Source of the DNA: Xylographa opegraphella
Lineage: Eukaryota
NCBI GenBank assembly: GCA_022813865.1
Contig: JALDZX010000027.1
Span: 62,001-126,000, forward strand
DNA length: 64,000 bases
Reading direction: 5' to 3'
This document shows, one piece after another, positions 7,467 through 38,630 of this stretch (position 1 is its first letter; every line of letters starts with the position of its first letter). The notes under the pieces were generated by a model that saw only the letters and a list, made by a program, of their open reading frames with translations, ran no database searches and had not been told where the DNA came from. A program made the position numbers and the translations under genes.

Positions 7467-9595
7467 GCACTTACCTTCGACGCTTGACAGACTCCCACCG
7501 GTTCCATCAGAGCCAAGATCTTACCCGACCACTCTGGACTCTGCCATGGTCGGATTCGTTGCTTGACGAAGCCTACATATACCTTGATCAACTTTATAGA
7601 CGCCACCGACAAGTGTGAACACATCTCTCGGCACTCCTCAAACGACTTTTTTTTTACCGCTTTTTAAATTACCATTGCAAGACTCTTTGGTGTTCTGATT
7701 TACTTCATACCCACTTACGCCTAGCCCAATATATATATACGACACTTTTCAATGGATCTCCGCCAGCAGCAACAGACTGATATCGACCTCTCCCTCACAG
7801 GTTCAGTCAATACTACAGCCAGAGTCGTTGACCCGGCCGAAGCATACCTTGTCTCACCGCAAACATGTCTACTCAGTCAAGCATGCACCTAGAGCGAGTG
7901 TCGACACATCGAAAACAAAGAGATGGAATCGTTGTATCAAAATCCAGCGCTAATAATGATATTACATGAAAATAAATGCGCATGTAATGGTCCTCGACAC
8001 CTCTGCGACGCCTAATCCGAACATATTCTTGCCACTCTTTGAAGCCTTTCATTAGGAACTTCAGACTATTTACCGGTCCGGAATATACTGTGGCCAGGTT
8101 CATTGATCGACTCCATCCACACTGACAGGCAAGATGAAAAGCCCGCCGGAAGAGAATCCTTACGCTGTCCGGAAGCCTATGAGCGATCTCTGAGGATGTC
8201 TCCCGCAGAACAGGGACGCAGCAGAGAGTCCCACACTTGGCAAAACATGCCTTCACCACTCACCACCACCTTACCACAGTCTACCAAACCTAAAGAGAAC
8301 GCGAACAAAGCAGCAAGTCCCAACGACTCGGCATAGATCCGGAACTTCTGGAATCTACGCGTCACACCAAAGTATGCAGATACTTTACCCCGCCAACTGA
8401 GGTTCATCCTATTACACAACGGTGATCTAGAAGAGGAAGAGGGAATATTCAAGCTAGAGTCTCAGTGACCTGACCGAGAACTAGTGGGACGCTTTATAGG
8501 TGAAATCACGATAGGCATCTTTGCCAGGTGCGAGAACCTCTCATTCAATCCAATATTGCACGACGTGTGAAGCGTTCGGATGGTGTATTGGCTATATTGG
8601 TTTTGCAAGGGGAGCTTGGACGGCAACTGTAATTAAAATCACAGAGCAAATGATCCATGGGCGCTAGTGTCTAACAATCCGCAGGCTTCTCAAGCTCATC
8701 GAGGTGGACTTCCAAAATGGTGCATGGGGATACGGTATACGCTCTGAACCGCAGATTGAGCTCATGGTTGAATACAAAGAAGGAGATCCATCGGTTTGGA
8801 TTGCTGGGAACACAAAAACGTGGAACATTCATTGACCTCGGGAAGCTTTTGTGTGCTGGTCTTCCTTCTGTGGAGTTCGGCAGGGTTGAGAATGAGGGAT
8901 GGAGGAGACAGCAGATCCTCACAGGATTTGTCTTGGTCCGGAGTGGTTGGTTTCGGATGGTGAGTGGGCTGCTATACGGGAATCGTACTCAATTGAGCCC
9001 ATTGCCACCTCAAGTACAAACCGGGTAGTCTACAGGTCAGACTATCTTGAAATACGATTAGTTTACTTCGTTGCGTATGAGAGAATAATTTGCAAGATAA
9101 AGTGCAGCAGTGATGTACAACACCATATCTTTTATCATCCCAAGATATATTCTACGAAAGACCAATTCTACCCGTAACAGTAGGAGTATACCATGAGTGT
9201 CAGCAGTCAGTAAGCTTAGCCGGTGTCATGCCTCACTGATCTACCTTCCCCAGCCTGTGGTAGCAATGTCAAGCTCACTCCTCATGCCAAGTTCTACACT
9301 GCCACCCTGTCTAATGTAACATCACTGCAATATCTTCTCTGTACACGACCACGTCAACAAAACGACCTTGCAATCGACAGTATAATACCATCAACCTTGT
9401 TACCAGACAAGCAAATCGCCATCCAACTCACCCAAGATCCATCCTTAAACACCGGCTATACCCCCCTCCCAACATCCACCCCCCTTTAGCCCTCAACACT
9501 CCCCTCCCCAGATTCGTCTTAGTTTCCCTCGCAGCCTCCACAGAAGCTGGTCGGTACTCGTCATCGGCACTGCGTAGAAGTGCGAACCCCGCCGC

Positions 9596-9793
9596 CGATG
9601 TCCGTCTCGGGAGTCATTCCAGAGGTTGGACTCGAACCAACTTGCAGAGGAGTCCCGTCCTCAACGGAGCAATTAAGGACAATGCTGTCCGACAGGCCGC
9701 CCCCCAGCGATATCCGTCTCGGGAGTCATTCCAGAGGTTGGACTCGAACCAACTTGCAGAGGAGTCCCGTCCTCAACGGAGCAGTTAAGGACA
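9596..9793. repeat. Direct repeat: two 86-bp copies (9596-9681, 9708-9793), period 112 bp, 2 mismatches
   Basis: Direct alignment of tccgtctcgggagtcattccagaggttggactcgaaccaacttgcagaggagtcccgtcctcaacggagca at both positions. Confidence 0.95.
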
Positions 9794-9842
9794 GCCTACG
9801 CTGTGACTGCGGAGTCGAGCTCCGAGTCCACGCTGGAACTTT

Positions 9843-10851: not shown

Positions 10852-13800
10852 CTAGTTGCTGAAAAGTACTGTTAGTGAGGGAAGATCGACTGATTTGACT
10901 TGGAGCACCTACTATATCTCAAGAGGTGCCAGCTGGTCGATACTGTAAAGCCAATTTCCCCCTTGCTCTTCCTTGGCCAACCTAGGAGCATGATGTCAGT
11001 CAAAATCACTGTTGAGTGCCAGACTCCGAGTACACCTACCATTCATACGGCCACACAACCAAAGAGCCTTGTACCATTTTCAACAGCTCTTCCCCATCAA
11101 CTGAACTAATCATGTCGTCGCTAGCATGGAATTCCTTCTTTGACCCACGTGTCGCCGTTCGTCGTCTCCGTTTCTGTGAATTTGTATTCATCGCGTCAGA
11201 GTAGGCGATCGGGTTCGGCGCTTCTGATTTTCCGGGCTTCTCAGCCGTTGAGTTTGAGTTTGTAATATCAGACAATGGAGCAACGTTGGAGGTTGTGGCA
11301 GCAAACTTCTCATCATCTTCAGCACCTCGCCTGCCCATCTGGCTTTCGTTTGCCTCACGCTCAAGCTGCTGCCTGTTGGCCTCTGCAGCCCAATCTTCCA
11401 CTTCGCCCATAGGTTTGTTCTTTTCGTCACTTTTGTTGCTCTTCATGTTGCTAATGATGTGACCATCCAATCCTGTGGCTTGCAGAGCATTACCGGCCTT
11501 CTCCCCGATAGGTCCGATCATGCGCAGGCGATCCGCAAGGTTTGCCTGACCAGGTGGACCTGAAGCACTTTGCACTTCCTGAGTTACACGCTCTTTCGGT
11601 TTACCGCCACCCTGAGCTTGCGCAAACCGTTCACCATACGCAGCATATTCTTTATACTCTTTCCAGTTCTTGACTTCGTTGTCTGGCATGCACCGGAATA
11701 CAGCGCGGAATAGTTTTGTGTTGTTTTCCGCGACCGCAAGCCAGGTATCAAGGTAGAAAGAGTCATTCAGAGGATCTTTCATGCAATCTTTGTCAACAAT
11801 GGGTCGCTTCATATCCGAAAGCACAGGACTGATGATTGCTGTTGCTTTCTTCGAGAACATACGCTGGATGGATGGGCCACCAATGTCAGTATCATCGCTC
11901 TTGGGCAATGCCGGCAATTGTGAAAGCATTGGCAGTCCGAGTTGGAAAGTTGACATACGCGGTAATTGAGGCGGTAGTGGAAGCGTATTCACAGAATCTG
12001 GCCTCGGCACTGGTGATCCGGTGAGAGATCCACTTGCTGCGGTGGTAGATGATCGTCCAGCTTCATCTAGTACTGAACTTTGTCGACCTCTTTGAGCATT
12101 TGTGTTTTCATTATCTTTCATATGATCTACACCTTCGCCTGCGACATCTTTGCGGTGTTTAGCGTTGCCTGTGACTCTACTATCTGTAGTCACCCTTTTG
12201 TTGGCCACCAGATTCGGATTGTCGGCTTGTTCCCAATCGATATCATGATTAAAGCTATACATGTCGTCAGACTTAGCGATTAAATCGTCCTGGATCTTGT
12301 GCTTCGCCTCGATCAAGGAATTGTCCGCCTCGCGATCGTCTTGGAGATCTGCGGAGTTGTCACTTGGGCCATGAAATTGGTCCATTTCTTTCTCCCATTT
12401 TTCATTGACTTGCTCTCCCTTTTCATCCTCCATGACTTCGTCGACGTCTATGCCCAGATGCTCACGCATTAGACGCATTCTGAGAGTGTGAGGAAATCTG
12501 CCAACCAAGTACGGCCTCCCCGCCATTATAGACCACAACATATCGGTGTCGCGAACAACAGCGGCACATTCAGAATCCCGACTACCAAGCATAGAGCGTT
12601 CATTGATATTTGCCGACCCGATAATGGCAATCCTGTCATCCACTACCATACACTTTGCATGGATGTACAACTGCTCCGTGACAAGAGCTTTGTTTGGCCC
12701 TATTTTTCCCCAAGACCGTAGGCTGAAGAAGTGAATGTAATCTTCTGGCTCTATTCCTTCAGCCCGAAGCCGACCGAAAATCGAAGAATCCCCTCTGTTT
12801 ATGCTTCGGAATTGGCACTGCATAATGAGCCGTACGCTGGTACCATCTTGACTATCCACAGTATTCTGAAATCCGGGCAACAAGGGAATTACGATTATCG
12901 CCCGCCAGTCTTCGTTGTTTTGATAAGCTCGCACTATACGCTCGACCAGCGCATCGCCGATAGAATTCTCAATCCTCGTTCCTTCAACTTCGGTACTAGT
13001 AACGAAGAATTGGTTCTCCACGTATACAAAATGATCTGATTGCTGGATCATCTTTATATAAGCATCCATGATACTATGCTCGACACGATCGGGGGTGCCC
13101 AAGGACCACATACAGCACGAACGTAGAATTTGCACTTCGCATGTGCCGTCTAACCCAAGGGCTTCCAAGTCAGCCGGATTGAAGTCAGGCGGAGGTAGTA
13201 GGAAAGGCGTCGGTCTTGTGGGTCTCCGTTGCCGAAGAATATAGTTCCAGCGCTGCACAAAATGACGGGTTAAGTCACGGGCAGGCTGGCCGACCACTTG
13301 CATCGATATATCGTGCCATGGCATCCGAGGTACCTTGGTCCGATCGTACATCTCTTCATATGGCTTGTCCAAGGCATAGAAATCTTGAACTCGAGGGTTG
13401 GAATAGTCTTTGCCGGGCCACAATTGACAATGATCGGCGTCCTTGGGCATATCTGACTGCTCGAACCCGGTAAGTTTATCGTCGACAACACTATGCTGCG
13501 GAGTGTCCCATCTTCCATAACATAGATCGATGCCTCCCACAAAAGCAACCATGTGGTCGACAATACATATCTTTTCGTGATGAGCCCAGAAGAAAGTGCC
13601 TTGTCGTATTTGGTTTGGCGATCGCTGGACGAAAACGTTTGGATGGAGATCGAGCAATGAGAACTTAGAGTATTCCGAGTCAATGGGGATAGCCGAATTG
13701 ATATTGCGATACATTATCACAAAAACCTTTACCCCTTCCTGAGCTTTACGCTGCAGTAGTCGATCCAAGCGCCACTTCTGGCTGATCGCTGCTGGTCTTC

Positions 13801-16498
13801 TCATGTAGAGTTCCGGACTTAGCCACCAATCATGGATGTAGATAACATCCTTGGCCATGCTGATTGCTCGAGATACATTCCACATATAGTCACGCCCGTC
13901 AACGAGCCACTGTGCGAAGACATTTGGTCTTACAGGGGCAAAGCTGTCGAATCGGTTTACCTTTGCCCATGGTGTGTTTGTAGACATAAATCGAATCGAG
14001 TCTTCGAACTGGTGAAGCTGACGCTCGTTCTTGGCCAAAAGTCTCAGCTTTCGCTCTGAGTTGTAGAGTTTCAGGGTATGGTTTTGAGGGTGTGCAGCGG
14101 ATGCTTTGGCGGATTTGGCAAGTTCTTTAGGCTTCTGATCTCTTATAGGTGGCCGTTTCTTCTTAGTCTGAATTCTGAAATCGGAGTCGACAAGAAAGAC
14201 GTCGTATATGTTCATCTCCTCCGGAGAGTCCACACATACAACGTAGCTATGCCTCACAAGAAACCATTTGGGTCCATGACGAGCTTTAAGCAGCGTGGGA
14301 GTCCACTTTTTGCGGAAATCTACTCCCTTACCAGATTGCAAGATCAGGAGACCTTCCTTTCCATGATAGCTTCCTTCGGCAGCGAGGCGTACACCCAGGG
14401 CAGATAGTTCCAGAAACTTGCAAAGACGATTGCTTTCAGGACGGAAGATTAGGTACCTTATCATCTGCTGTAGGTATAGTTCCAACTTCCTACGCTGTCT
14501 CTCTGCAAAGGGGTCCTTACGATTCGAAGCACCAGCAACCGCACCTGCCGTTCCACCTGCAGCTGCAAGAACTCCTCCAACTGCAGACCCAAGCGCCACA
14601 TCCGTTGCGGCACTGGACTTGCGTCGCATAATACTCATCGAAGGACGACTCTTTTTTCTTTTGCTAGGCCTTTCCGTCGCGCTGCCATCGCCTCCGCTAG
14701 CACCGGTGCCGTCACCTTCCAGGTCCTCTTCCGCTTCAGACTCACTGTCAAGTCCTCGAATGCCTCGTAGATATGGAAAGGCGCTTCTAGGAAAATGTGG
14801 CATTTTGGTGCGAGCATCACTATCCTTTCGTTGAATGTATTTTTGAGCACTAATCTGTAGTTTGTATCTTGCATGCAAGTTGGCAAAATCCCTTAGAGCT
14901 CGGTGAATTACCCATTTCATACGTGTAAGCCCATTGCCGTATTCCAGTTCTATCCGAAATATCATATGCCTATCTCCCGACTTTGAATCAACTTGTTTGC
15001 TGTCAGTGAGTTTGACCTTTAGCTGTTCGAGAAGTACGGGTATTTTCCTGTTTCCGTGCTCGTCTCTCTGGAACATACTAGCTAGAATTAGGACGGCAGG
15101 GACCCCAGCGGTCAACTCAGCAAGCAATTCTGCAGACTTCGCATGATCTATGGTGATCTCTGCCTTTCGTCGTTGACCTATCATCTTCAACCCTGCCTTG
15201 ATTTGTCGCCACTTTGCTGCACTGAGAGACGATGTTCGTTCACCGCGAAGCTTCCAAGGCGAAAACGGCGTTCCTTCCGCGCCATCTCCCGAGCCTCCGA
15301 ATCCCGTAATGACGCGTCGGAAATTACTCGGTCGAGGCGTGTCATGGCTTAACTGTTGAGTAGACTTACTACGAGTTCCGCCATAACTCATGCCTCTAGG
15401 ACCGTGTACCCAAGCGCTGCCCCTCTTCCAAGGACTTCCTTGGGTAAGTCTACCCCGACCTTCATCTTCAGAAACACCCTGACGTTCTTCCATCGGCAGA
15501 TCAGTCATCGTTGCGCGTCTAGGTGGGAAAATAGGACGGATGTTTCCATCATTTGAAGTTGCAGAGTTCGAAGATAGCATGTCAGGTCGTCTCTCACGCA
15601 TGAAAGGAGTTTTGGGGGTCGTCGGAGCTGTTTGAGCTCCACCGTCTTGAGGACGGCGGCTTTTTCTTCTCCTGCTTCTACCTGCATGGTCTGGTCCAGT
15701 ATCTTCGGCAGTGCTTAGTTCACCATCGGCATCTGCTTCGTCTTCATCCTCGTCGGGACTTTCGGCAAAATATGGCCGTTCTCTATCTCCATCTGCTGTG
15801 AACAGTCCACCCGTCGGAAGTCGCTCATCAATAGAGTCACCACCAATCGTAAAAGCGCTTGGGCTACGGGTGTGAATTTGACGACTGGATGACCCGGCTA
15901 GCGCTCTGATCTTAGTAAGAAGAGATCCTCCACGACGATCTTTAAGTGATGGATCCAGGTCCAGTGAGCCTAGATTTTCGGGCTGAGAAGACTCTCCAGC
16001 AGGTCGCACGAATTGAACACTTCGACGTCCGGGCGGTGTAGTTGAGCCGCTTATGTTCGACCATTTCTGGGATGTGCTCTCTGAGGGTAGATTCAGGGTA
16101 TCTGAAGTACTGCGAATTGTTAACCCGCGCGGGCTATCTGTAATACCTGTCCCGTTTATCGCAGCTTTTCTACCAATACCATTCTTGTCGGCTTCTGACG
16201 TAGAGGGTCTGTGGGAACCGCTAGTTCCATGGAAGGGAAAACCATCTGTGATAGAGGCAAAGGTAACACCATTCGTAAGCTCCTCTTCTCCTTGACCGAC
16301 ACTGTCAATGACAGAACTGGAGGATTCGTCGGCATTTTGTGCGGTTCTCAACGGTGAATTCGGCGTAGTGTGTGGAGGTTGTAGGAAATCTTTCCGAAAT
16401 CTGAGACCTGTCTCGGGCCACTGAGTGAATGATGGTAGTATCGTGAGCGATGGGCTTGAATCACGGCCCTCCGTAGGCGGAGTTTCCATGCCGTCCAT
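10852..16498 (-). CDS. SPO14: Phospholipase D1 (Spo14/PLD1 type, PX-PH plus two HKD motifs)
   Basis: 1820-aa ORF with HHEKICIVD and YIHAKCMVVDD HKD motifs. Two small 3' exons (WLAKEEQGGNWLYSIDQLAPLEIY|N*) end at TAG 10852-10854. Confidence 0.95.
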
Positions 16499-17083
16499 CG
16501 ATCAAGTCATGTTTGACCTTAATTTTATCCTCACTGAATGGCATGACCTTCATGCATATGCCCAAAGTCGCCACACCCCTCAGGTATCCCTAGATTGATT
16601 GATGGGACCCTTGGACCGGGTAGAGAAAGAACAGAGGAAAGATTTCAGTACGGTCGTCTCCTTGCTGTTGAACGAATTGACTTCGCAGCCGCATTGGTTC
16701 GCATCCAAGAATTCTGAGGACTGTAGGCAAGTATGGTGACGGACTGCAGACCCGCTCCGAGACTTTAGGTGAGGTAGTTGTTGAAGCGGAGAAATCCCAG
16801 CATGTCTGTACTGGTATCACGTCCTTCATGTCCTCCAGCCGGAGGACGTGGATCTCCACCAAGCAAGGATCATTTCAGCCCTGTGATCTGCCGGGCGGAC
16901 AGGGGCTTTAAATGGCTGAATGGATGGGGTCGCTCTTAAAGTTCTCCGCACACGGATGAGGACCATGTCACGTAATTTTCTGTGCTTCCTGGCAATTGAT
17001 GCAATAGTTCAAATATCGGACCTATGTTCCTAACTGCTACTTCCACTTCATACCACGCCTTCACTACTACCTGTTGAGAAACA

Positions 17084-18206
17084 ATGGCTACCCCCAACCC
17101 ATTAGCAAACACTCATTCACAATCTCCCATACGGCTGTCAACGAAGACACATGTGATTGCCGGCATTCTGTGCACAGTTTATGGATATGATGAACTCCTT
17201 CCTGAGACGAAGAACGTTGCATGCTTATGGCTGCTCAATCCTCGACTGCAAACGCAGGCATGCATGGAACCTGTGGCGTTCTCGGCCATCAACCATTGGA
17301 ACCAGCGCCTGAAGCAGAAGCAAGATCGCCATGAGTTTCAAGGACTGATAGCCATCTCGTTCGACCAACGAAACCATGGCTCCCGAGAAATAAAACCTCT
17401 CGCCAACCAGTCATGGAGTGCTGGGAACGAGAAACATGCCCAGGATATGTTTTCAATCTTTCGTTTGTAGTCCATCGATTTTTCCCCCGGTTTATACAGC
17501 CTGACGTACAGTAGATGGCACGTCTCTAGACACTTCCCAATTGATTACATATCTGCCCTCATATATCTTTCCTAGCTCAGAGCGTCATATTTCTTCCAAC
17601 CTGGTCTTGGGCATATCGCTAGGAGGCCATGCTGCCTGGCATTGCGCGTTTCATGAACCTCGTATCACGACCGCTATCGTGATCATAGGATGTCCAGATT
17701 ATACCCGCTTGATGTCTGATCGGGCGAAACTGTCGAAGTTAGAGTCATGGACCACGACCACCCCTCCTGGATCGTCCTTTCTCGGCTCTGTAGATTTCCC
17801 ACTTGGCCTTGTGAAAGCTGTGGAGAGGTATGATCCCGCAGGAATGTGCCTTGGAGTATCGTCTCGATCCGAAGAGTCCTTCAAGCAAGCACCGTCACCC
17901 GAGCGGCAACGAGACCTTGTGCCGCTCCTGAAGCACTGCCTCGAGGGAAAGAGGATCATGAATCTGGCTGGGGCGGCTGACAAGTTGGTTCCCTATGCTC
18001 AAGCTGCGCCATACCTAGGATGGCTCAAGCGAGCAATAAGCCCACATGGATGGTTCAAGGAGGGACACGTAACGCTTGAGGATATTGTGTTCGATGGTGT
18101 CGGGCATGAGATGAGCCCTGATATGCTGAGCGCCGCAATTCGATTTATTGAACAGTCACTTGAGTCGATTCCTGCAAAGTCCAGAGAGACAGCTTCAAAG
18201 ATCTGA
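17084..18206 (+). CDS. Alpha/beta-hydrolase fold protein
   Basis: FDQRNHG, GISLGG nucleophile elbow, D(KLVP) and GVGH triad residues. Intron 17463-17514. Confidence 0.85.
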
Positions 18207-18602
18207 AAAGTAAAAAAGGTCTCTTACCTTTGTGTCATTATGCGATGGTGTTTTGTCGTGATCTTCAATACGCGAGAAATATTGTGGTTAAGGTCTACGA
18301 CTCTAGGAGATATGCGAATAATGCGGCTTCTGAATTGTCATGAATATCCTATTGTTTGACGGTGTGTTTTAATGGTCACTGCCAAGTCATGTTGTGTTGC
18401 TGAGGAAGAGGAAAGCGCCCTCGGTCATAGCACTTGCTGCCTGAGTCTGGGAAGTCAAATAAGAAATCAAAGCGCACCTCAAAAAGGCCTGAAAAAGTCT
18501 TCGCTTTAACATGGAACGGGATCGAACCCGGAACCAAAATGGTGACTGCCCCTGGGCACTCCCACTCACCCGCCAAAAAAGATCTCCGGCCGCCCAAAGT
18601 GC

Positions 18603-18917
18603 AAAAACATAACCCGGGATGGCTATGAAACCTAACTCAGCGGCTGCTAGGTGGGTTTTGGATTCGAGCTGGACCAATGGAACGGGAGGGGAGTCCATGG
18701 CTGGCCAGGGCAGTATTCACCCACGCCTGTCCCAGAAGATCCTCCACTCATGAAGCACTAGGTACAACATGAGTGGGATCTGCCCTGGGCCCGAGTGTCT
18801 GGGGAGTGAGGACAGGTACCACTATAGACACTTTAGCGAGATTCGTCGATCGATGTTGGCGAAATCCGTAAAGTCCATTGACCTGAGCCACCCGATGTGA
18901 CCGCCCGGGACTTAGTT
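18603..18917 (-). ncRNA. Candidate structured RNA polymerase III non-coding RNA (~310 nt), family not recognised
   Basis: Minus-strand TATA-like ATATATTTATTAAAAG (18931-18946), A-box-like TGGCTCAGGTCAATGG (18875-18890), T5 terminator (18603-18607), downstream B-box GGTTCGATCCC (18518-18528). Several 6-9-bp helices, with G-U pairs favouring the minus strand. Confidence 0.55.
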
Positions 18918-20432
18918 GAAGAAGCCACACCTTTTAATAAATATATTCTTACTCTTGAATTATCAGACATCGCAACACAAGTACCTGCACCGGGGTGCTA
19001 TCCTTCTTCTTGGAATCCAGGACACCACAACATCCACACGCTCCTCTCTCTCTCTTCGTGCATTGCGATGCAATGATCGAACAGTTGACTTACGGTCTGG
19101 TCGCATAACATTGAGCTGCCGTACTATTCGTACCTGCCTGTCACTATCTATCCCTCATCCTCGAAGCACATAGCTATACACTGTGTTACACAACTCAGAC
19201 AGTAGCCCCCATCGACGAGTGTATCTCGATGCAAGACACATCATCTCCATTTCTACAGCCAAAGATGATTCTTTCCATACACCCCTTTTCAAACAGCTCG
19301 ATTGATTGTTCTTACCAGAGTACCATCTTACTCGTCCCTCCTGATTGCAACACTCCTATTCTCATTCATGCCCAGGGCAAGCACCCACCCCATCGAAACA
19401 CCCACTCCCATCTAGCCATAGATGCGACAGCCCTCTATTGATCCCCATCCCCAGACTTTCTCACACCAGTATTACCGAACGCGCAACCCCCAGCACCAAG
19501 CTCACACCCACTACCATCCCCCTACCGCCCAGCCGTATCCACACATCACACCCACTATACACATACTCAACCCAGGCCACCGACACGAAAGCGCATCTCC
19601 GACAACGCTGCCGATACCACGACAGAAACCACCCCACACAACAACTCTACCATCCCACCTCCCTCCACCAAGCCAAGCCACACAGCAAAGTTCCCATCCG
19701 TTGCAAGCATAATTCCCTTCCCCCTTCACTCAAGCCGTCTCCCGAGGCAATACATCCGCTACCCAGATCGACAAGGCTACCATCCAGCATCCCATTCCCC
19801 AGAAGAGCCGAGCCGTCACGCCGTACGGGAGCCCCGGACTACGAGGCTGAACACAAAAGGGGGAGGATGGGCGGATGCGAAGTAGGGGATTTGGCATCGG
19901 CGAGGCAGATAGGAGGCGGTGCGATGTAACCGCACGCAACGCCGTGACGAGAAGATGAGATGAAGAGGCGCATGCGCGCTTAGGATGGCGTCCAATGGCA
20001 GGTTACATGTGGGCGTTACGACGGGAGGTCGCACTGGGAGTGTACAGCTCACTACGATGTAGATTTTGCGGGGCAAATTATGGTGAAGACTGTAGTGGTT
20101 ATATTGCATAATTTAGTCGAGACAATCACTCTGTGAGATTCTCGGTATCGTGTTACTATCTAATCTACGAGCTGACAGCATCAGTTCCAGAATCTAGACA
20201 TGTCTGTGATATAGACCTTTGTCGAACTTGTCATGAATCCATCCCAATATAATCCCACGCATGATGTCCTGTCCACGAGGGACAGTCTCGATGTGGCGAG
20301 GCACAATGTATGATGCATATATGTCAGCGATACTCTATGTTCGACAAGTCCCTCCCTCCAAGAACACGCTGGTGATGGCCTCGTTGCATGCTAAGCTCTG
20401 CTGTCGGAGCGGGCAGCTGTGCGACTCGACCT

Positions 20433-22289
20433 CTAGAAATTCTCTTTTCCCCATACGTAGTTGAAGCCTGGCTCACTATACATGTTGCACTTGATATGTA
20501 ACTGACTCCCAAGTGGTTTGGGGCCGCAGAAGAAGACTCCGGCCTCGGCAGGCGAGTGAATTTTGCGAATCGATTTGAAAATAGTGTCCCAATTGGGCCG
20601 TCCGAAATTTGTAGGCGCTCGCAAACCGGTGATTGCGTCGACAGCCGAATTGTGATCGTTGATCATGAGATTGGCAGCGTCGTCCGATTTTATCTTTGCT
20701 GTCAGATACTGTTTCTCGTTAGTGGACACCATCAATAGTCGTTATAGTCGGGGGGCTTACTGTATGAATTTCAATGTGGTTGTCCATATCCTGAGCCTCG
20801 ATGGCCATTAGCAACGATCGGAACCACTCGAACGAGCCGAAATCCCTGCAAATCCAGAAAAAGTAGACTTTCCTAAGTCGGGTTTTCTCTTTCGGATAAT
20901 TCATTCGATACCACACACTCTTGAGGATCGAGGCGAATGGTGTGACACCAATACCTGCACCGACTAAGACAGCAATCTCGTACTTGAAAACGTCTTCGGA
21001 GGCGCTACCAAATGGTCCATCGATATAGACACGAGGTAAAATTCTTCGCACTGCAGAATTTCTTTGTGTTTTCTCCGTGTCATCATTGAGGCTGACGACC
21101 TCCGGTTTTCCATCTTGCGGACTCTTCCTCCCATCTTCAAATGAGCACCCGACAGCTTTCGCCAGGTCCTTGGTGAAATTTCCCGCGCAACGAATATGAA
21201 CCGAAAGATAGTCTTCTTCAGGTGCACTGGTCAGAGTGAAGGGATGATATTGCCAGACAGATATCTCAGGACAACATAGAAAGATGTACTAGTACAATGT
21301 CAATATCGGCGCAGAATCAACGTCAAGATCTTTCTCACCTGTCCTGCCCTGGTTTTCGTGTGCTCCTTCTTGATTTGCAATTCGACAACGTTACTGGGAT
21401 GCTGAATGACCTTCGATATGTAAGTCTTGTGTCGTCCTCGTATCTCTCTCATTATTCGCTCTGCCAGGTAAATGAAACCTCCCCAACCCCAGTATTGATA
21501 GAAAACACCTGTGCCGAAGCAGAATGGTGCTGCATCCGCTTTTATCATACAGAAAGCTCCATGGACCGACCAGAAAATAAAAAATACAGCCATTAGATGA
21601 TGAGTGTACCAGAAACGTTCGAAATTGGCGCGCTTGAACCTTTCGATGGACGTAAAGACCATAGCCATCAAGGCAAATAGCATCACGTAGCCCGACCACC
21701 CGGGGCCAGTCTTAAAGTTGGCCAGAAGAAATCCTTTGAACCCTAGGTTTCCCTTGGCGGCAAGTTGAGCAAAATTGTTCCAATGTGCTATGGTATGAAC
21801 CCACGTGAAGAACACAATCGACCAAGCTACAAGCTTGTGAAAAGTGATGTTCTTGTCGAATTGTATGATCCCGTTGAGAGGTGTCTGCCTAAGGAGAGAG
21901 ATAAGAGTTCGGCACACTGGAAATACGAGGAAAGCAACATCGAAGTGCAGTACTAGAGCCGCAGCTCTGGCAATTGAGTATGTGACACCGAAAGTAGCCC
22001 GTGCAGTTGTCAGGTTGTCCTTCAGGTAGTAGTTCGTAAAACCAAAGGCGAAGACCATAGCGTGAACGAGCATAAAGAGGCCGACGGTCAATTGTCTTGA
22101 ACCCTCATTGACCATCCAACGCTGAGTCTTCTCGATCAAGCTCAGATCTCTGGGAGGTTCACCACTCATCTCACCCGACATTAGCATCCTAGTAAGTGGT
22201 GGGTATCGTGAGCGTTCTGACTTCACGGACAAGCCCCGCTCCAGCTTCGCCTCGGTCAAGCCATATAGGCCATCCTCGAAGCTGTTCAT
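20433..22289 (-). CDS. noxB: NADPH oxidase, NoxB/Nox2 type (gp91phox homologue)
   Basis: Ferric-reductase TM domain (ITFHKLV, HTIAH, WYTHH), [21 protein letters not shown]. The N-terminal extension [16 protein letters not shown] and the C-terminal WGKENF are typical of fungal NoxB. Two introns. Confidence 0.9.
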
Positions 22290-38012: not shown

Positions 38013-38084
38013 TAGCACTGTCTGGTTTCGATCCAGAGCCCTCCGGGTTATGAGCCCGGCGCGCTTCCGCTGCGCCACAGTGCT
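38013..38084 (-). tRNA. tRNA-iMet (CAT), initiator
   Basis: AGCACTG acceptor stem with A1-U72, anticodon arm CCGGG-CTCATAA-CCCGG, initiator-type T-loop ATCGAAA, 72 nt, oligo-T downstream. Confidence 0.97.
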
Positions 38085-38630
38085 GACTAAGTTGAAAGGA
38101 TGACAATCCAACATAAAATATATCCTTTTGATATATTTTCGGACAGCTTCTTCCGAGGTTTATCGTTGATATACTCATCTGCTGCGGACCTCTTGAAACA
38201 AAGCTTTTAGTGGCACAACACATTATATTTTAGCCCGCTTTCCTTGACGTGAAATCCTTGGATTTCAGCATTATTTGAATAATCTATCGCTTCATCTACT
38301 GAATGTTCTGCGTCTTCATCAATGGTGCTCGCTCGACGATGAGCTGCACGGCAAGCAAAATATAAATTACAAAGACTGGCCAATCGGAGCCCCATCAAAT
38401 CGCGGCGGGATTCGCCTCCGTGCCCCGGCCGGGGAGGATAAGGTCCCAGAAGGTCCCGAAAGGCCAGCCTTCCTCAAGGTCCACTGCACGCTTCATTGAA
38501 TAGCAAGGTCTATGCCTGCCTACAATTTCTTGTCAACGGAGCCTCCTTCGCTGGGTATGTCGTCCGTACCGTCGACCTCGGAAGCCAGCTTGAGTTTAGT
38601 TCGTCAATCCATGAGCCCACGCAAGGCGAT

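What the first reader, a model, noticed from the sequence alone, without database searches (positions are those of the whole stretch)
18518..18946. Candidate undescribed Pol III structured ncRNA (~310 nt) with a U6-type promoter and pseudoknot potential
Seen, read on the minus strand: a TATA-like tract (18931-18946) about 28 nt before a likely start near 18917, an internal A-box-like TGGCTCAGGTCAATGG (18875-18890), a T5 terminator (18603-18607) backed by T6 (18575-18580), and a B-box GGTTCGATCCC (18518-18528) downstream of the terminator. Between start and terminator the sequence is densely self-complementary. The ends can pair through CCCGGG (18613-18618 / 18904-18909). There are perfect 9-bp helices 18705-18713 / 18780-18788 and 18744-18752 / 18768-18776, a 7-bp helix 18794-18800 / 18826-18832, and a 7-bp pairing 18726-18732 / 18810-18816 that crosses the first helix (pseudoknot or kissing loop). 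The hairpins GGTCAC/GTGGCT and ACCTAGC/GTTAGGT pair fully only with G-U on the minus strand, which agrees with the promoter orientation. Established: TATA + internal A-box + downstream B-box is the layout of S. cerevisiae SNR6. I could not find the hallmark motifs of U1-U6, RNase P/MRP, SRP RNA, TPP riboswitch or a TTAGGG telomerase template. Inference: a discrete, folded Pol III RNA of unknown family.
Basis: partly seen in the sequence, partly recalled or inferred. Interest (0 to 1): 0.85.

Follow-up and report, generated by a model that had tools for sequence, protein, structure and literature searches.

The report
Conserved unclassified Pol III RNA gene
A 315-base non-coding stretch between two fungal genes looks like a real, evolutionarily conserved small-RNA gene read by RNA polymerase III, and it matches no described RNA family.

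Summary

The strongest evidence is new. In the DNA assemblies of two related fungi, only 18600/18604-18917 aligns in this intergenic region, at about 91-92% identity. That is higher than the neighbouring coding sequence (87-89%). Both flanks are replaced by unalignable DNA. Each genome laid one contig, so it is not a SINE. A 269-nt contig from a wood-decay RNA library covers 18662-18917.

The 5' edge carries the same core promoter as the tRNA-iMet gene 19 kb away: TATATTT, about 21 nt, then TTCAACTNAGTC. These are the only two such sites in 64 kb. Four T5+ runs and a perfect orphan B-box follow the block.

No reading frame spans the block. Rfam 15 gives nothing at E<=10.

Structure is only partly supported. 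The whole-RNA energy z-score is -0.70, but the central 92 nt reach -3.54. I obtained no relatives' sequences, so covariation, the pseudoknot and function are untested.

Verdict: a real minus-strand Pol III gene of unknown family and function.

The parts
18931..18951 (-). AT-rich TATA-like tract at -13 to -33 from the predicted start. TATATTT begins at -28.
   Evidence: Sequence confirmed. One of 8 AT-rich clusters (>=15 of 16 A/T) in 64 kb. In relative X2 an AT-rich tract (TTATAATTAATATATA on the plus strand) occupies -15 to at least -30 (table 7).
18909..18919 (-). Initiator and leader motif TCAACTAAGTC. The predicted start is the A at 18917 or 18916.
   Evidence: TCAACTNAGTC occurs twice in 64 kb (0.17 expected). 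The other copy directly abuts the mature 5' end of tRNA-iMet. TATATTT-N15-25-TTCAAC occurs only at these two sites (0.02 expected).
18603..18917 (-). Predicted transcript of about 315 nt, equal to the block conserved in relatives.
   Evidence: X2 aligns 18600-18917 with 26 mismatches and 2 gaps. X4 aligns 18604-18917 with 28 and 1. RNA-library contig X3 aligns 18662-18917 with 20 and 1. Flanks are replaced by unlike DNA. No frame is open across it. No Rfam match.
18875..18890 (-). A-box-like TGGCTCAGGTCAATGG at +28 to +43. It resembles tRNA positions 8-21.
   Evidence: Sequence confirmed. The loose pattern is not rarer than chance by itself (2 against 3.4 expected). The tRNA-like reading is my inference.
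18660..18670 (-). Internal B-box-like AGCTCGAATCC at +248 to +258, inside the conserved block.
   Evidence: Matches GNTCGANNCC. That pattern has 18 matches in the window against 9.2 expected, so this is weak evidence.
18702..18793 (-). Central 92-nt rod-like hairpin domain with alternative pairings.
   Evidence: Minus strand -46.0 kcal/mol, z -3.54, 0 of 200 shuffles as good. Plus strand -33.9, z -2.13. It contains the two 9-bp Watson-Crick helices.
18904..18909 (-). 5' strand of the terminal stem, CCCGGG.
   Evidence: Pairs 6 of 6 with 18613-18618. It is kept in the centroid structure of the whole RNA.
18613..18618 (-). 3' strand of the terminal stem, CCCGGG.
18874..18883 (-). GGUCAAUGGA, the 5' strand of a possible 10-bp long-range helix.
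Evidence: Listed as a 10-bp WC+GU stem (RNA 35-44 with 237-246). It competes with a local hairpin, and its conservation is untested.
18672..18681 (-). UCCAUUGGUC, the 3' strand of that long-range helix.
18603..18607 (-). T5 run, the predicted primary Pol III terminator at +311 to +315.
   Evidence: Conservation in X2 and X4 stops at 18600 and 18604.
18481..18580 (-). Back-up T runs: T6 at 18575-18580, T5 at 18492-18496 and T5 at 18481-18485.
   Evidence: The tRNA-iMet gene of the same window is also followed by T6, T8 and T5 runs.
18518..18528 (-). Perfect orphan B-box GGTTCGATCCC at +390 to +400, downstream of the terminator.
   Evidence: 3 perfect B-boxes in 64 kb against 0.55 expected. No tRNA-model match in 18440-18610 at E<=10, and ARAGORN finds none. 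It lies in a flank that does not align with relatives.

Best explanation
An independent, single-copy RNA polymerase III gene lies on the minus strand. It produces a non-coding RNA of about 311-315 nt that belongs to no described family.

Proposed mechanism:
1. TFIIIB/TBP sits on the TATATTT tract at about -28.
2. TFIIIC is recruited through the A-box-like element (+28 to +43) and a B-box. The B-box is either the internal B-like element (+248) or the perfect orphan one at +390, which would be an SNR6-like arrangement.
3. Pol III starts at the A of TTC|AAC (18917 or 18916).
4. It stops at T5 (18603-18607), with three further T runs as back-up.

The RNA would end in a U-tract (a La-type 3' end), close its ends with a CCCGGG stem, and carry a stable 92-nt central rod. 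It most likely acts as a stable ribonucleoprotein scaffold or regulatory RNA, like other lineage-restricted Pol III RNAs, rather than as a catalytic P/MRP-type RNA.

Shown: sequence constraint with gene-sized sharp edges, the promoter and terminator signals, single-copy status, presence in an RNA library, no open reading frame and no Rfam match.
Inferred: Pol III usage, exact RNA ends, the fold and the function.
For: Conservation:
- Two relatives' assemblies align at 18600/18604-18917 only: 26 mismatches plus 2 gaps in 318 nt, and 28 plus 1 in 314 nt.
- The adjacent coding stretch is less conserved: 79 mismatches in 708 nt, and 120 plus 11 gaps in 902 nt (17500-18401, which runs about 195 nt past the stop at 18206).
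- The flanks are replaced by unlike DNA: 121 or 208 letters on one side, 209 or a loose end of at least 255 on the other.
- X1, X2 and X4 each laid one contig.
- RNA-library run X3 has a 269-nt contig on 18662-18917 that ends 5 letters past 18917.

Promoter:
- TCAACTNAGTC and TATATTT-N15-25-TTCAAC each occur only here and directly upstream of tRNA-iMet.
- X2 keeps an AT-rich tract at the same distance from the block edge (table 7).

Terminator and B-box:
- There are four minus-strand T5+ runs within 127 nt. The window-wide rate of 0.625 per kb gives about 0.08 expected.
- A perfect B-box lies 75 nt past T5.

Not coding: every frame has stops within the block. The 60-aa frame has no database relative.
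No Rfam family at the gathering score or at E<=10.
Local structure: central domain z -3.54; two 9-bp stems, P = 0.006.
Against: - The whole-RNA folding energy is not better than shuffles (z -0.70). The plus strand folds slightly better overall: -114.5 against -104.8 kcal/mol, z -1.61.
- Region 18828-18873 folds better on plus.
- The A-box pattern alone is within chance.
- The downstream B-box lies in DNA that does not align between relatives.
- The AT-rich tract read on the plus strand contains AATAAA at 18936, a possible polyadenylation signal.
- The RNA evidence is one short contig from one study. It carries no strand information, and its depth (4.7) is similar to that of the neighbouring mRNA, not the high level expected of an abundant housekeeping RNA.
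- Conservation is shown only among close relatives. No relatives' sequences could be retrieved, so there is no covariation test.
- I could not check whether canonical RNase P, MRP and SRP RNA genes exist elsewhere in this genome (no genome held).
Confidence: 0.6

Rival explanations
1. It is this lineage's highly divergent version of a known housekeeping Pol III RNA (RNase P, RNase MRP or SRP RNA) that Rfam's models miss.
For: - The length (about 315 nt), single-copy status, Pol III signals and terminal stem fit.
- A possible long-range 10-bp helix (RNA 35-44 with 237-246) and a 3' hairpin before the closing stem loosely recall the P1/P3/P4/P19 layout. That layout is recalled from memory, not tested.
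- I could not check whether canonical copies exist elsewhere, because no genome is held.
Against: - No Rfam match of any kind at E<=10, even when only 331 nt were searched with lax filters.
- On either strand there is no GNAANNUCNGNG, no ACNNNANNNNGNNUA, no GAAAGUC and no UGUAAU.
- No hairpin has a GNAR or GNRA tetraloop.
- These motif definitions are recalled from memory.
Confidence: 0.12
2. It is a Pol III-transcribed precursor of microRNA-like small RNAs, like milR-1 to milR-4 of Neurospora crassa. The central hairpin would be the Dicer substrate.
For: - The central 92 nt fold into a long imperfect hairpin of about 34 bp, z -3.54.
- In N. crassa the major milRNA precursors are made by Pol III, carry TATA-like elements and end in T clusters. 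One is linked to tRNAs (PMC3547838, passages read).
Against: - The whole 315 nt is conserved at about 92%. There are no indels outside 18857-18869, and the conservation is not confined to the hairpin arms.
- The RNA contig spans 256 nt, which fits a stable long RNA.
- No small-RNA data were available.
Confidence: 0.1
3. The block is read on the plus strand by Pol II. It would be a conserved element at the end of a long 3' UTR of the upstream ORF (stop at 18206), or a separate polyadenylated non-coding transcript.
For: - AATAAA at 18936 and an AT-rich tract lie just past the block on the plus strand.
- The plus strand folds slightly better overall.
- The same RNA library holds the 3' part of the neighbouring ORF at similar depth.
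Against: - This reading does not explain the perfect B-box, the four same-strand T runs, or the promoter motif shared with tRNA-iMet, all of which are oriented for the minus strand.
- The RNA contig stops 5 letters past 18917. That is before the AATAAA, whereas a polyadenylated plus-strand RNA should run 20-50 nt further.
- The central domain is 12 kcal/mol more stable on minus.
Confidence: 0.1
4. It is a DNA-level element with no functional RNA product: a conserved TFIIIC-bound boundary site, or a fossil of a tRNA-derived retroposon fixed before these species split.
For: - There is an orphan B-box and an A-box-like element resembling the tRNA D-arm.
- Another tRNA-like relic with perfect B-boxes lies at 9588-9793.
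- The site sits between convergent genes.
Against: - A fossil would decay like its flanks. Instead 315 bp are held at about 92%, almost without indels, while the flanks are unalignable.
- It is single copy at >=80% likeness in three genomes.
- It is present in an RNA library.
- A TFIIIC site needs only about 11 bp.
Confidence: 0.05

Closest known systems
S. cerevisiae SNR6 (U6 snRNA gene) promoter layout
   Same: TATA at about -30, an A-box inside the transcribed region, a T-run terminator, and a B-box placed downstream of the terminator. The SNR6 layout is recalled from memory; the elements here are.
   Different: The RNA is about three times longer than U6. It has no ACAGAGA box and no U6 match in Rfam. 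The downstream B-box is not shown to be conserved, and an internal B-like element also exists.
tRNA genes with an upstream TATA box (plants, S. pombe), and the tRNA-iMet gene of this window
   Same: TATATTT at -28/-29, then TTCAACTNAGTC at the start site and leader. A-box, and clustered T runs downstream. TATA at -30/-24 in plant and S. pombe tRNA genes: PMC7279448, passages read.
   Different: No cloverleaf (ARAGORN; Rfam tRNA model). The A-box sits at +28 rather than about +17 as in the tRNA here. The A-box to B-box distance is 220 or 360 bp.
Lineage-restricted Pol III RNAs that arose from tRNA or 7SL sequences (BC1, BC200, 4.5SH, 4.5SI of mammals)
   Same: Type-2-like internal promoter plus a TATA-like box near -30. 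A small stable RNA restricted to a narrow lineage (PMC7279448, passages read).
   Different: Those are mammalian, 90-200 nt long, and have identifiable SINE, tRNA or 7SL parents. Here no parent is identifiable beyond the promoter motifs.
[quoted passage not shown]
   Same: Size class, Pol III transcription in many eukaryotes, single copy, and paired ends or long-range helices.
   Different: The family-defining conserved regions and the helix-8 tetraloop motif are absent. No Rfam match.
Neurospora crassa Pol III-transcribed pri-milRNAs (milR-1 to milR-4)
   Same: A filamentous ascomycete. Pol III with TATA-like elements and T-cluster terminators, and a hairpin precursor (PMC3547838).
   Different: Full-length conservation here and a 256-nt assembled RNA contig. 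No small-RNA evidence.

Membership tests
Pol III-transcribed gene (hybrid TATA plus internal-element class) | TATA-like element about 30 bp upstream of the start | tested here: met
   TATATTT at -28. One of 8 AT-rich clusters in 64 kb. Same spacing as at tRNA-iMet. X2 keeps an AT tract at -15 to -30.
Pol III-transcribed gene (hybrid TATA plus internal-element class) | A-box and B-box for TFIIIC | tested here: inconclusive
   An A-box-like element is present, but the pattern is not rarer than chance. The perfect B-box is significant (3 against 0.55 expected), but it lies outside the alignable block. The internal B-like element is weak.
Pol III-transcribed gene (hybrid TATA plus internal-element class) | Oligo-T terminator at the 3' end | tested here: met
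   T5 lies exactly where conservation ends. T6, T5 and T5 follow within 127 nt.
Pol III-transcribed gene (hybrid TATA plus internal-element class) | Pol III/TFIIIC occupancy and dependence of the RNA on Pol III | not testable with these tools
   This needs ChIP or a Pol III inhibitor or knock-down.
U6 snRNA | ACAGAGA box and a match to the U6 covariance model | tested here: not met
   No ACAGAGA on either strand. No Rfam match.
Nuclear RNase P RNA | CR-I (GNAANNUCNGNG) and CR-V (ACNNNANNNNGNNUA), consensus recalled from memory; match to RF00009 | tested here: not met
   Neither motif is on either strand. No Rfam match at E<=10.
RNase MRP RNA | GAAAGUC-type CR-I (recalled from memory); match to RF00030 | tested here: not met
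   No GAAAGTC on either strand. No Rfam match. UAAAGUCC occurs on the plus strand only, near the wrong end of the block; I read this from the sequence.
SRP RNA | UGUAAU turn and a helix-8 hairpin with a GNAR tetraloop (recalled from memory); match to the SRP models | tested here: not met
   No UGUAAU. None of 3 GNAR sites and none of 2 GNRA sites is closed by a stem of 2 bp or more. No Rfam match.
C/D or H/ACA snoRNA | UGAUGA and CUGA boxes, or an ACA three nt from the 3' end | tested here: not met
   No TGATGA. No ACA in the last 20 nt (sequence). Only chance-level snoRNA matches of 13.9 bits.
SINE / dispersed retroposon | Many dispersed copies per genome | tested here: not met
   One contig laid per genome at >=80% likeness in X1, X2 and X4. 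No second copy in the 64-kb window.
Protein-coding exon or small ORF | An open frame across the conserved block | tested here: not met
   All six frames carry stops inside 18600-18917. The 60-aa frame has no relatives.
Structured ncRNA (evolutionarily conserved fold) | Compensatory substitutions in helices | not testable with these tools
Four collection scans found no homologue.

The most novel reading that the evidence does not exclude
It is the founding member of an undescribed family of selectively constrained Pol III RNAs in filamentous ascomycetes. It is expressed from a tRNA-type core promoter with an SNR6-like downstream B-box. It is built around a switchable 92-nt rod with a possible loop-to-internal-loop pseudoknot, and it serves as the RNA core of an unknown ribonucleoprotein.
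Probability: 0.5. Interest if true: 0.75.

Novelty: new member of a known kind. Interest (0 to 1): 0.62.

Why it matters
The set of Pol III transcripts in fungi is thought to be small and essentially complete: tRNAs, 5S, U6, RNase P and SRP RNAs, and a few yeast oddities. A conserved, single-copy, roughly 315-nt Pol III RNA with no family assignment would add to that set in filamentous fungi. It would also point to an unknown ribonucleoprotein.

The locus gives a compact native Pol III promoter and terminator pair: TATATTT, then TTCAACTNAGTC, then a T cluster. This kind of element is used to express guide RNAs in fungi.

The finding also shows that conservation edges in close relatives can mark RNA genes that covariance-model libraries miss.

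Tried and rejected
Homologue searches that found nothing usable:
- Exact-word scans of JGI metagenome contigs. A 22-mer from the A-box region gave 0 hits. An 18-mer from RNA 237-254 gave 7 loci (L001-L007), and all 7 match over only 18-21 nt by blastn, so they are chance hits.
- Exact-word scans of prokaryote genome contigs. A 20-mer gave 0 hits. A 21-mer gave 13 loci (L008-L020, 12 labelled as Acidobacteria-group genomes and 1 as Acidimicrobiales). They match 21-24 nt; in the three loci I printed (L008, L016, L020) the match lies in sequence that reads like a coding gene. All 13 are chance hits.
- A protein search with the 60-aa stop-free frame, in the hope that relatives carry miscalled ORFs there, found no candidate.
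- Earlier notes of this scan, searched by place, by sequence and by words, held nothing relevant.
- A full-text search for three sequence strings in DNA and RNA spelling found 0 papers.
- Literature word searches for a described fungal Pol III RNA of this kind returned nothing that matches. One preprint (10.1101/2024.07.27.605418) was checked by passages and is irrelevant.

Other dead ends:
- No whole genome is held for this window. Paralogues and the canonical RNase P, MRP and SRP genes could not be sought.
- The flank carrying the downstream B-box (18440-18610) and the tandem repeat at 9540-9840 have no tRNA-model match at E<=10.
- X3 gives no cover over 18237-18661 or 18918-19500. The relatives' DNA does not align over most of those stretches either (X4 aligns to 18401, X2 at 18338-18427), so this says nothing about transcription there.
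- Similarities I noticed by eye to the Alu/7SL 5' domain, to RNase P CR-IV (AGGUCAAU) and to 4.5S helix-8 words were judged too short, and they rest on recalled sequences. I did not pursue them.
Full report
**1. The observation**

- the AT-rich tract ATATATTTATTAAAAG (18931-18946);
- TGGCTCAGGTCAATGG (18875-18890);
- T5 (18603-18607) and T6 (18575-18580);
- GGTTCGATCCC (18518-18528);
- CCCGGG at both ends of the stretch;
- five perfectly Watson-Crick pairings of 9, 9, 7, 7 and 6 bp.

**2. Setting**

The stretch lies in a 2.2-kb gap between convergent genes.
- On the left, a plus-strand two-exon ORF ends at 18206. It has no Pfam match. I read a GxSxG motif in its translation.
- On the right, a minus-strand ferric-reductase/NOX-type gene ends near 20433. 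It matches PF01794, PF08022 and PF08030.
- A phospholipase D gene lies further left at 11036-16501 (minus).
- No reading frame is open across 18600-18917 on either strand.
- The longest stop-free frame (60 aa) has no relative among 5.8 billion protein clusters.

**3. Conservation, the decisive result**

A run search found the probable source assembly (X1), two relatives from the same study (X2, X4) and a wood-decay metatranscriptome (X3). I laid all four on 17500-19500 at >=80% likeness.

| Run | Stretch aligned | Mismatches, gaps |
|---|---|---|
| X2 | 17500-18207 (coding) | 79, 0 in 708 nt |
| X2 | 18338-18427 | 14, 3 in 90 nt |
| X2 | 18600-18917 | 26, 2 in 318 nt |
| X4 | 17500-18401 | 120, 11 in 902 nt |
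| X4 | 18604-18917 | 28, 1 in 314 nt |
| X4 | 19179-19201 | 1, 0 in 23 nt |
| X3 | 18662-18917 | 20, 1 in 256 nt |

- Between these pieces, the relatives carry unlike DNA of different length: 121 or 208 letters in place of 172 or 202, and 209 letters or a long loose end to the right of 18917.
- So a 315-bp island is held at about 91-92% identity. That is better than the adjacent coding sequence (87-89%), in otherwise unalignable intergenic DNA.
- The only indels in the island are at 18857-18869.
- X1, X2 and X4 each laid exactly one contig.
- The X3 contig is 269 nt long and ends 5 letters beyond 18917.
- The same RNA library holds the 3' part of the neighbouring ORF (17777-18212) but not its equally conserved 5' part. 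That pattern looks like RNA rather than contaminating DNA, though this is my inference.
- Limits: the contigs give no strand. This is one study. Contig ends are only weak evidence of RNA ends.

**4. Polymerase and strand**

The window's one tRNA gene is initiator tRNA-Met at 38013-38084 on the minus strand. It gives an internal standard for a Pol III gene in this genome.
- Its upstream region reads TATATTTTATGTTGGATTGTCATCCTTTCAACTTAGTC, followed directly by the mature tRNA.
- The candidate reads TATATTTATTAAAAGGTGTGGCTTCTTCAACTAAGTC, followed by the conserved block.
- TCAACTNAGTC occurs only at these two places in 64 kb (0.17 expected, 0 of 100 shuffles reach two).
- TATATTT-N15-25-TTCAAC also occurs only at these two places (0.02 expected).
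- The tRNA gene is followed by T6, T8 and T5 runs. The candidate is followed by T5, T6, T5 and T5 within 127 nt, where the minus strand averages 0.625 such runs per kb.
- In X2 the letters beyond 18917 read, on the minus strand, as an AT-rich tract from -30 to -15 followed by GGACTTCTT and then the block. The TATA-like tract therefore keeps its position even where the sequence does not align (table 7).
- A perfect B-box lies 75 nt beyond T5 in the same orientation. There are 3 perfect B-boxes in the window against 0.55 expected.
- That B-box is not part of a recognisable tRNA.

Together these signals make a minus-strand Pol III transcription unit the best reading. I put that at about 0.8.

A TATA box at -30/-24 in front of type-2 genes is described for plants and S. 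pombe (PMC7279448, passages read). The SNR6 layout, with its B-box downstream of the terminator, I recall from memory.

Two cautions on the promoter:
- The downstream B-box lies in the flank that does not align between relatives, so I cannot say whether it is conserved.
- An internal B-like AGCTCGAATCC (18660-18670) inside the conserved block could serve instead, though that loose pattern is common (18 against 9.2 expected). The A-box pattern alone is also within chance.

**5. The plus-strand rival**

- Read on the plus strand, the AT-rich tract holds AATAAA at 18936.
- The plus strand folds slightly better overall: -114.5 against -104.8 kcal/mol.
- A polyadenylated plus-strand RNA should extend 20-50 nt beyond 18917. 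The RNA contig stops after 5.
- This reading also leaves the B-box, the T-run cluster and the tRNA-type initiator unexplained.

**6. Structure**

- The full 315-nt RNA is not more stable than shuffles: z -0.70 on minus and -1.61 on plus.
- Having two Watson-Crick stems of >=9 bp is unusual (0.16 expected, P = 0.006). The count of stems of >=7 bp, which includes the proposed pseudoknot pairing, is not unusual (5 against 2.42, P = 0.10).
- The central 92 nt (18702-18793) are clearly special on the minus strand: -46.0 kcal/mol, z -3.54, 0 of 200 shuffles as good. The plus strand gives -33.9 and z -2.13.
- Their lowest-energy fold is a rod of about 34 bp. The whole-RNA fold uses a third alternative. 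The domain may therefore switch between conformations, or the models may simply be unresolved.
Under that constraint the program adds, without being told to, a 10-bp long-range helix between GGUCAAUGGA (18874-18883) and UCCAUUGGUC (18672-18681).
- The G-U strand argument holds for the 5' hairpin but not for the 3' hairpin, and region 18828-18873 prefers the plus strand.
- Without the relatives' letters there is no covariation test. All helices outside the central domain are inference.

**7. Comparison with known families**

- Rfam 15 gives only the tRNA at gathering scores across the whole window.
- At E<=10 there is nothing in or near the block, whether 901 nt or only 331 nt were searched. 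The only hits are chance-level snoRNA and sRNA matches of 13-16 bits.
- The motifs I recall as defining the following families are absent on both strands:
  - RNase P: CR-I and CR-V;
  - MRP: GAAAGUC;
  - U6: ACAGAGA;
  - SRP: UGUAAU and a GNAR-capped helix;
  - C/D and H/ACA snoRNAs;
  - a CCCUAA telomerase template.
- The promoter works like SNR6 or like TATA-assisted tRNA genes. As a gene type, the closest analogues are lineage-restricted Pol III RNAs such as BC1, BC200 and 4.5SH/4.5SI (PMC7279448).
- In a Sordariomycete, the Pol III-made pri-milRNAs of Neurospora are also close (PMC3547838, passages read).
- None of these is a family it can be filed under.

**8. What could not be done**

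- Four exact-word scans found no homologue: two of JGI metagenome contigs and two of prokaryote genome contigs.
- No genome is held for the window.
- The breadth of conservation beyond close relatives is therefore open. So are covariation, the presence of canonical RNase P, MRP and SRP genes elsewhere in the genome, and the RNA's strand and exact ends.
- Full-text searches for the sequence and for a described fungal RNA of this kind found nothing. Supplements and non-CC papers were not searched.

**9. Verdict**

This is a real, constrained, single-copy non-coding gene. It is most likely transcribed by Pol III on the minus strand from 18917/18916 to the T5 run at 18603-18607.
- It belongs to no family in Rfam 15.
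- Its function is unknown. My best guess is a stable RNP scaffold or regulatory RNA built around the central rod.
- About one chance in ten each goes to three rivals: a small-RNA precursor, a divergent housekeeping RNA, and a plus-strand Pol II element.
- Interest is moderate to high. The gene call is solid, but the structural and functional claims remain to be tested.

Noticed in passing
window 9588-9793 (minus strand): Two tandem copies (112-nt period, 95% alike) of a unit carrying a perfect tRNA T-arm-like GTTGG-TTCGAGT-CCAAC with a consensus B-box. They lie just after the stop codon of an acidic-tailed ORF. ARAGORN finds no tRNA there, and Rfam gives no tRNA match at E<=10.
   Followed up: partly
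window 38085-38122 (minus strand): The initiator tRNA-Met gene has a TATATTT box at -29 and a TTCAACTTAGTC start and leader motif, followed downstream by T6, T8 and T5 runs. This may be the local Pol III core-promoter consensus and is worth checking on other tRNA genes of this genome.
   Followed up: partly
window 19200-19950: A strongly strand-biased tract, C-rich on the plus strand, with GC skew down to -0.60 at 56-60% GC. It holds low-complexity Pro/Thr/His-rich pseudo-ORFs with no Pfam match. It does not align with the relatives except for 23 nt at 19179-19201.
   Followed up: no
window 17084-18206 (plus strand): A two-exon ORF conserved at 87-89% in relatives and present in the RNA library. 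It has no Pfam match at E<=0.001. Its translation contains a GxSxG motif, which suggests an unclassified serine hydrolase.
   Followed up: no
window 18773-18793; loci L008-L020: A 21-mer of the candidate is identical to sequence in 13 prokaryote genome loci, 12 of them labelled as Acidobacteria-group genomes (Terracidiphilus, Silvibacterium and relatives). In the three loci I printed it lies in sequence that reads like a conserved coding gene. The match does not extend beyond 21-24 nt, so it is a coincidence.
   Followed up: yes
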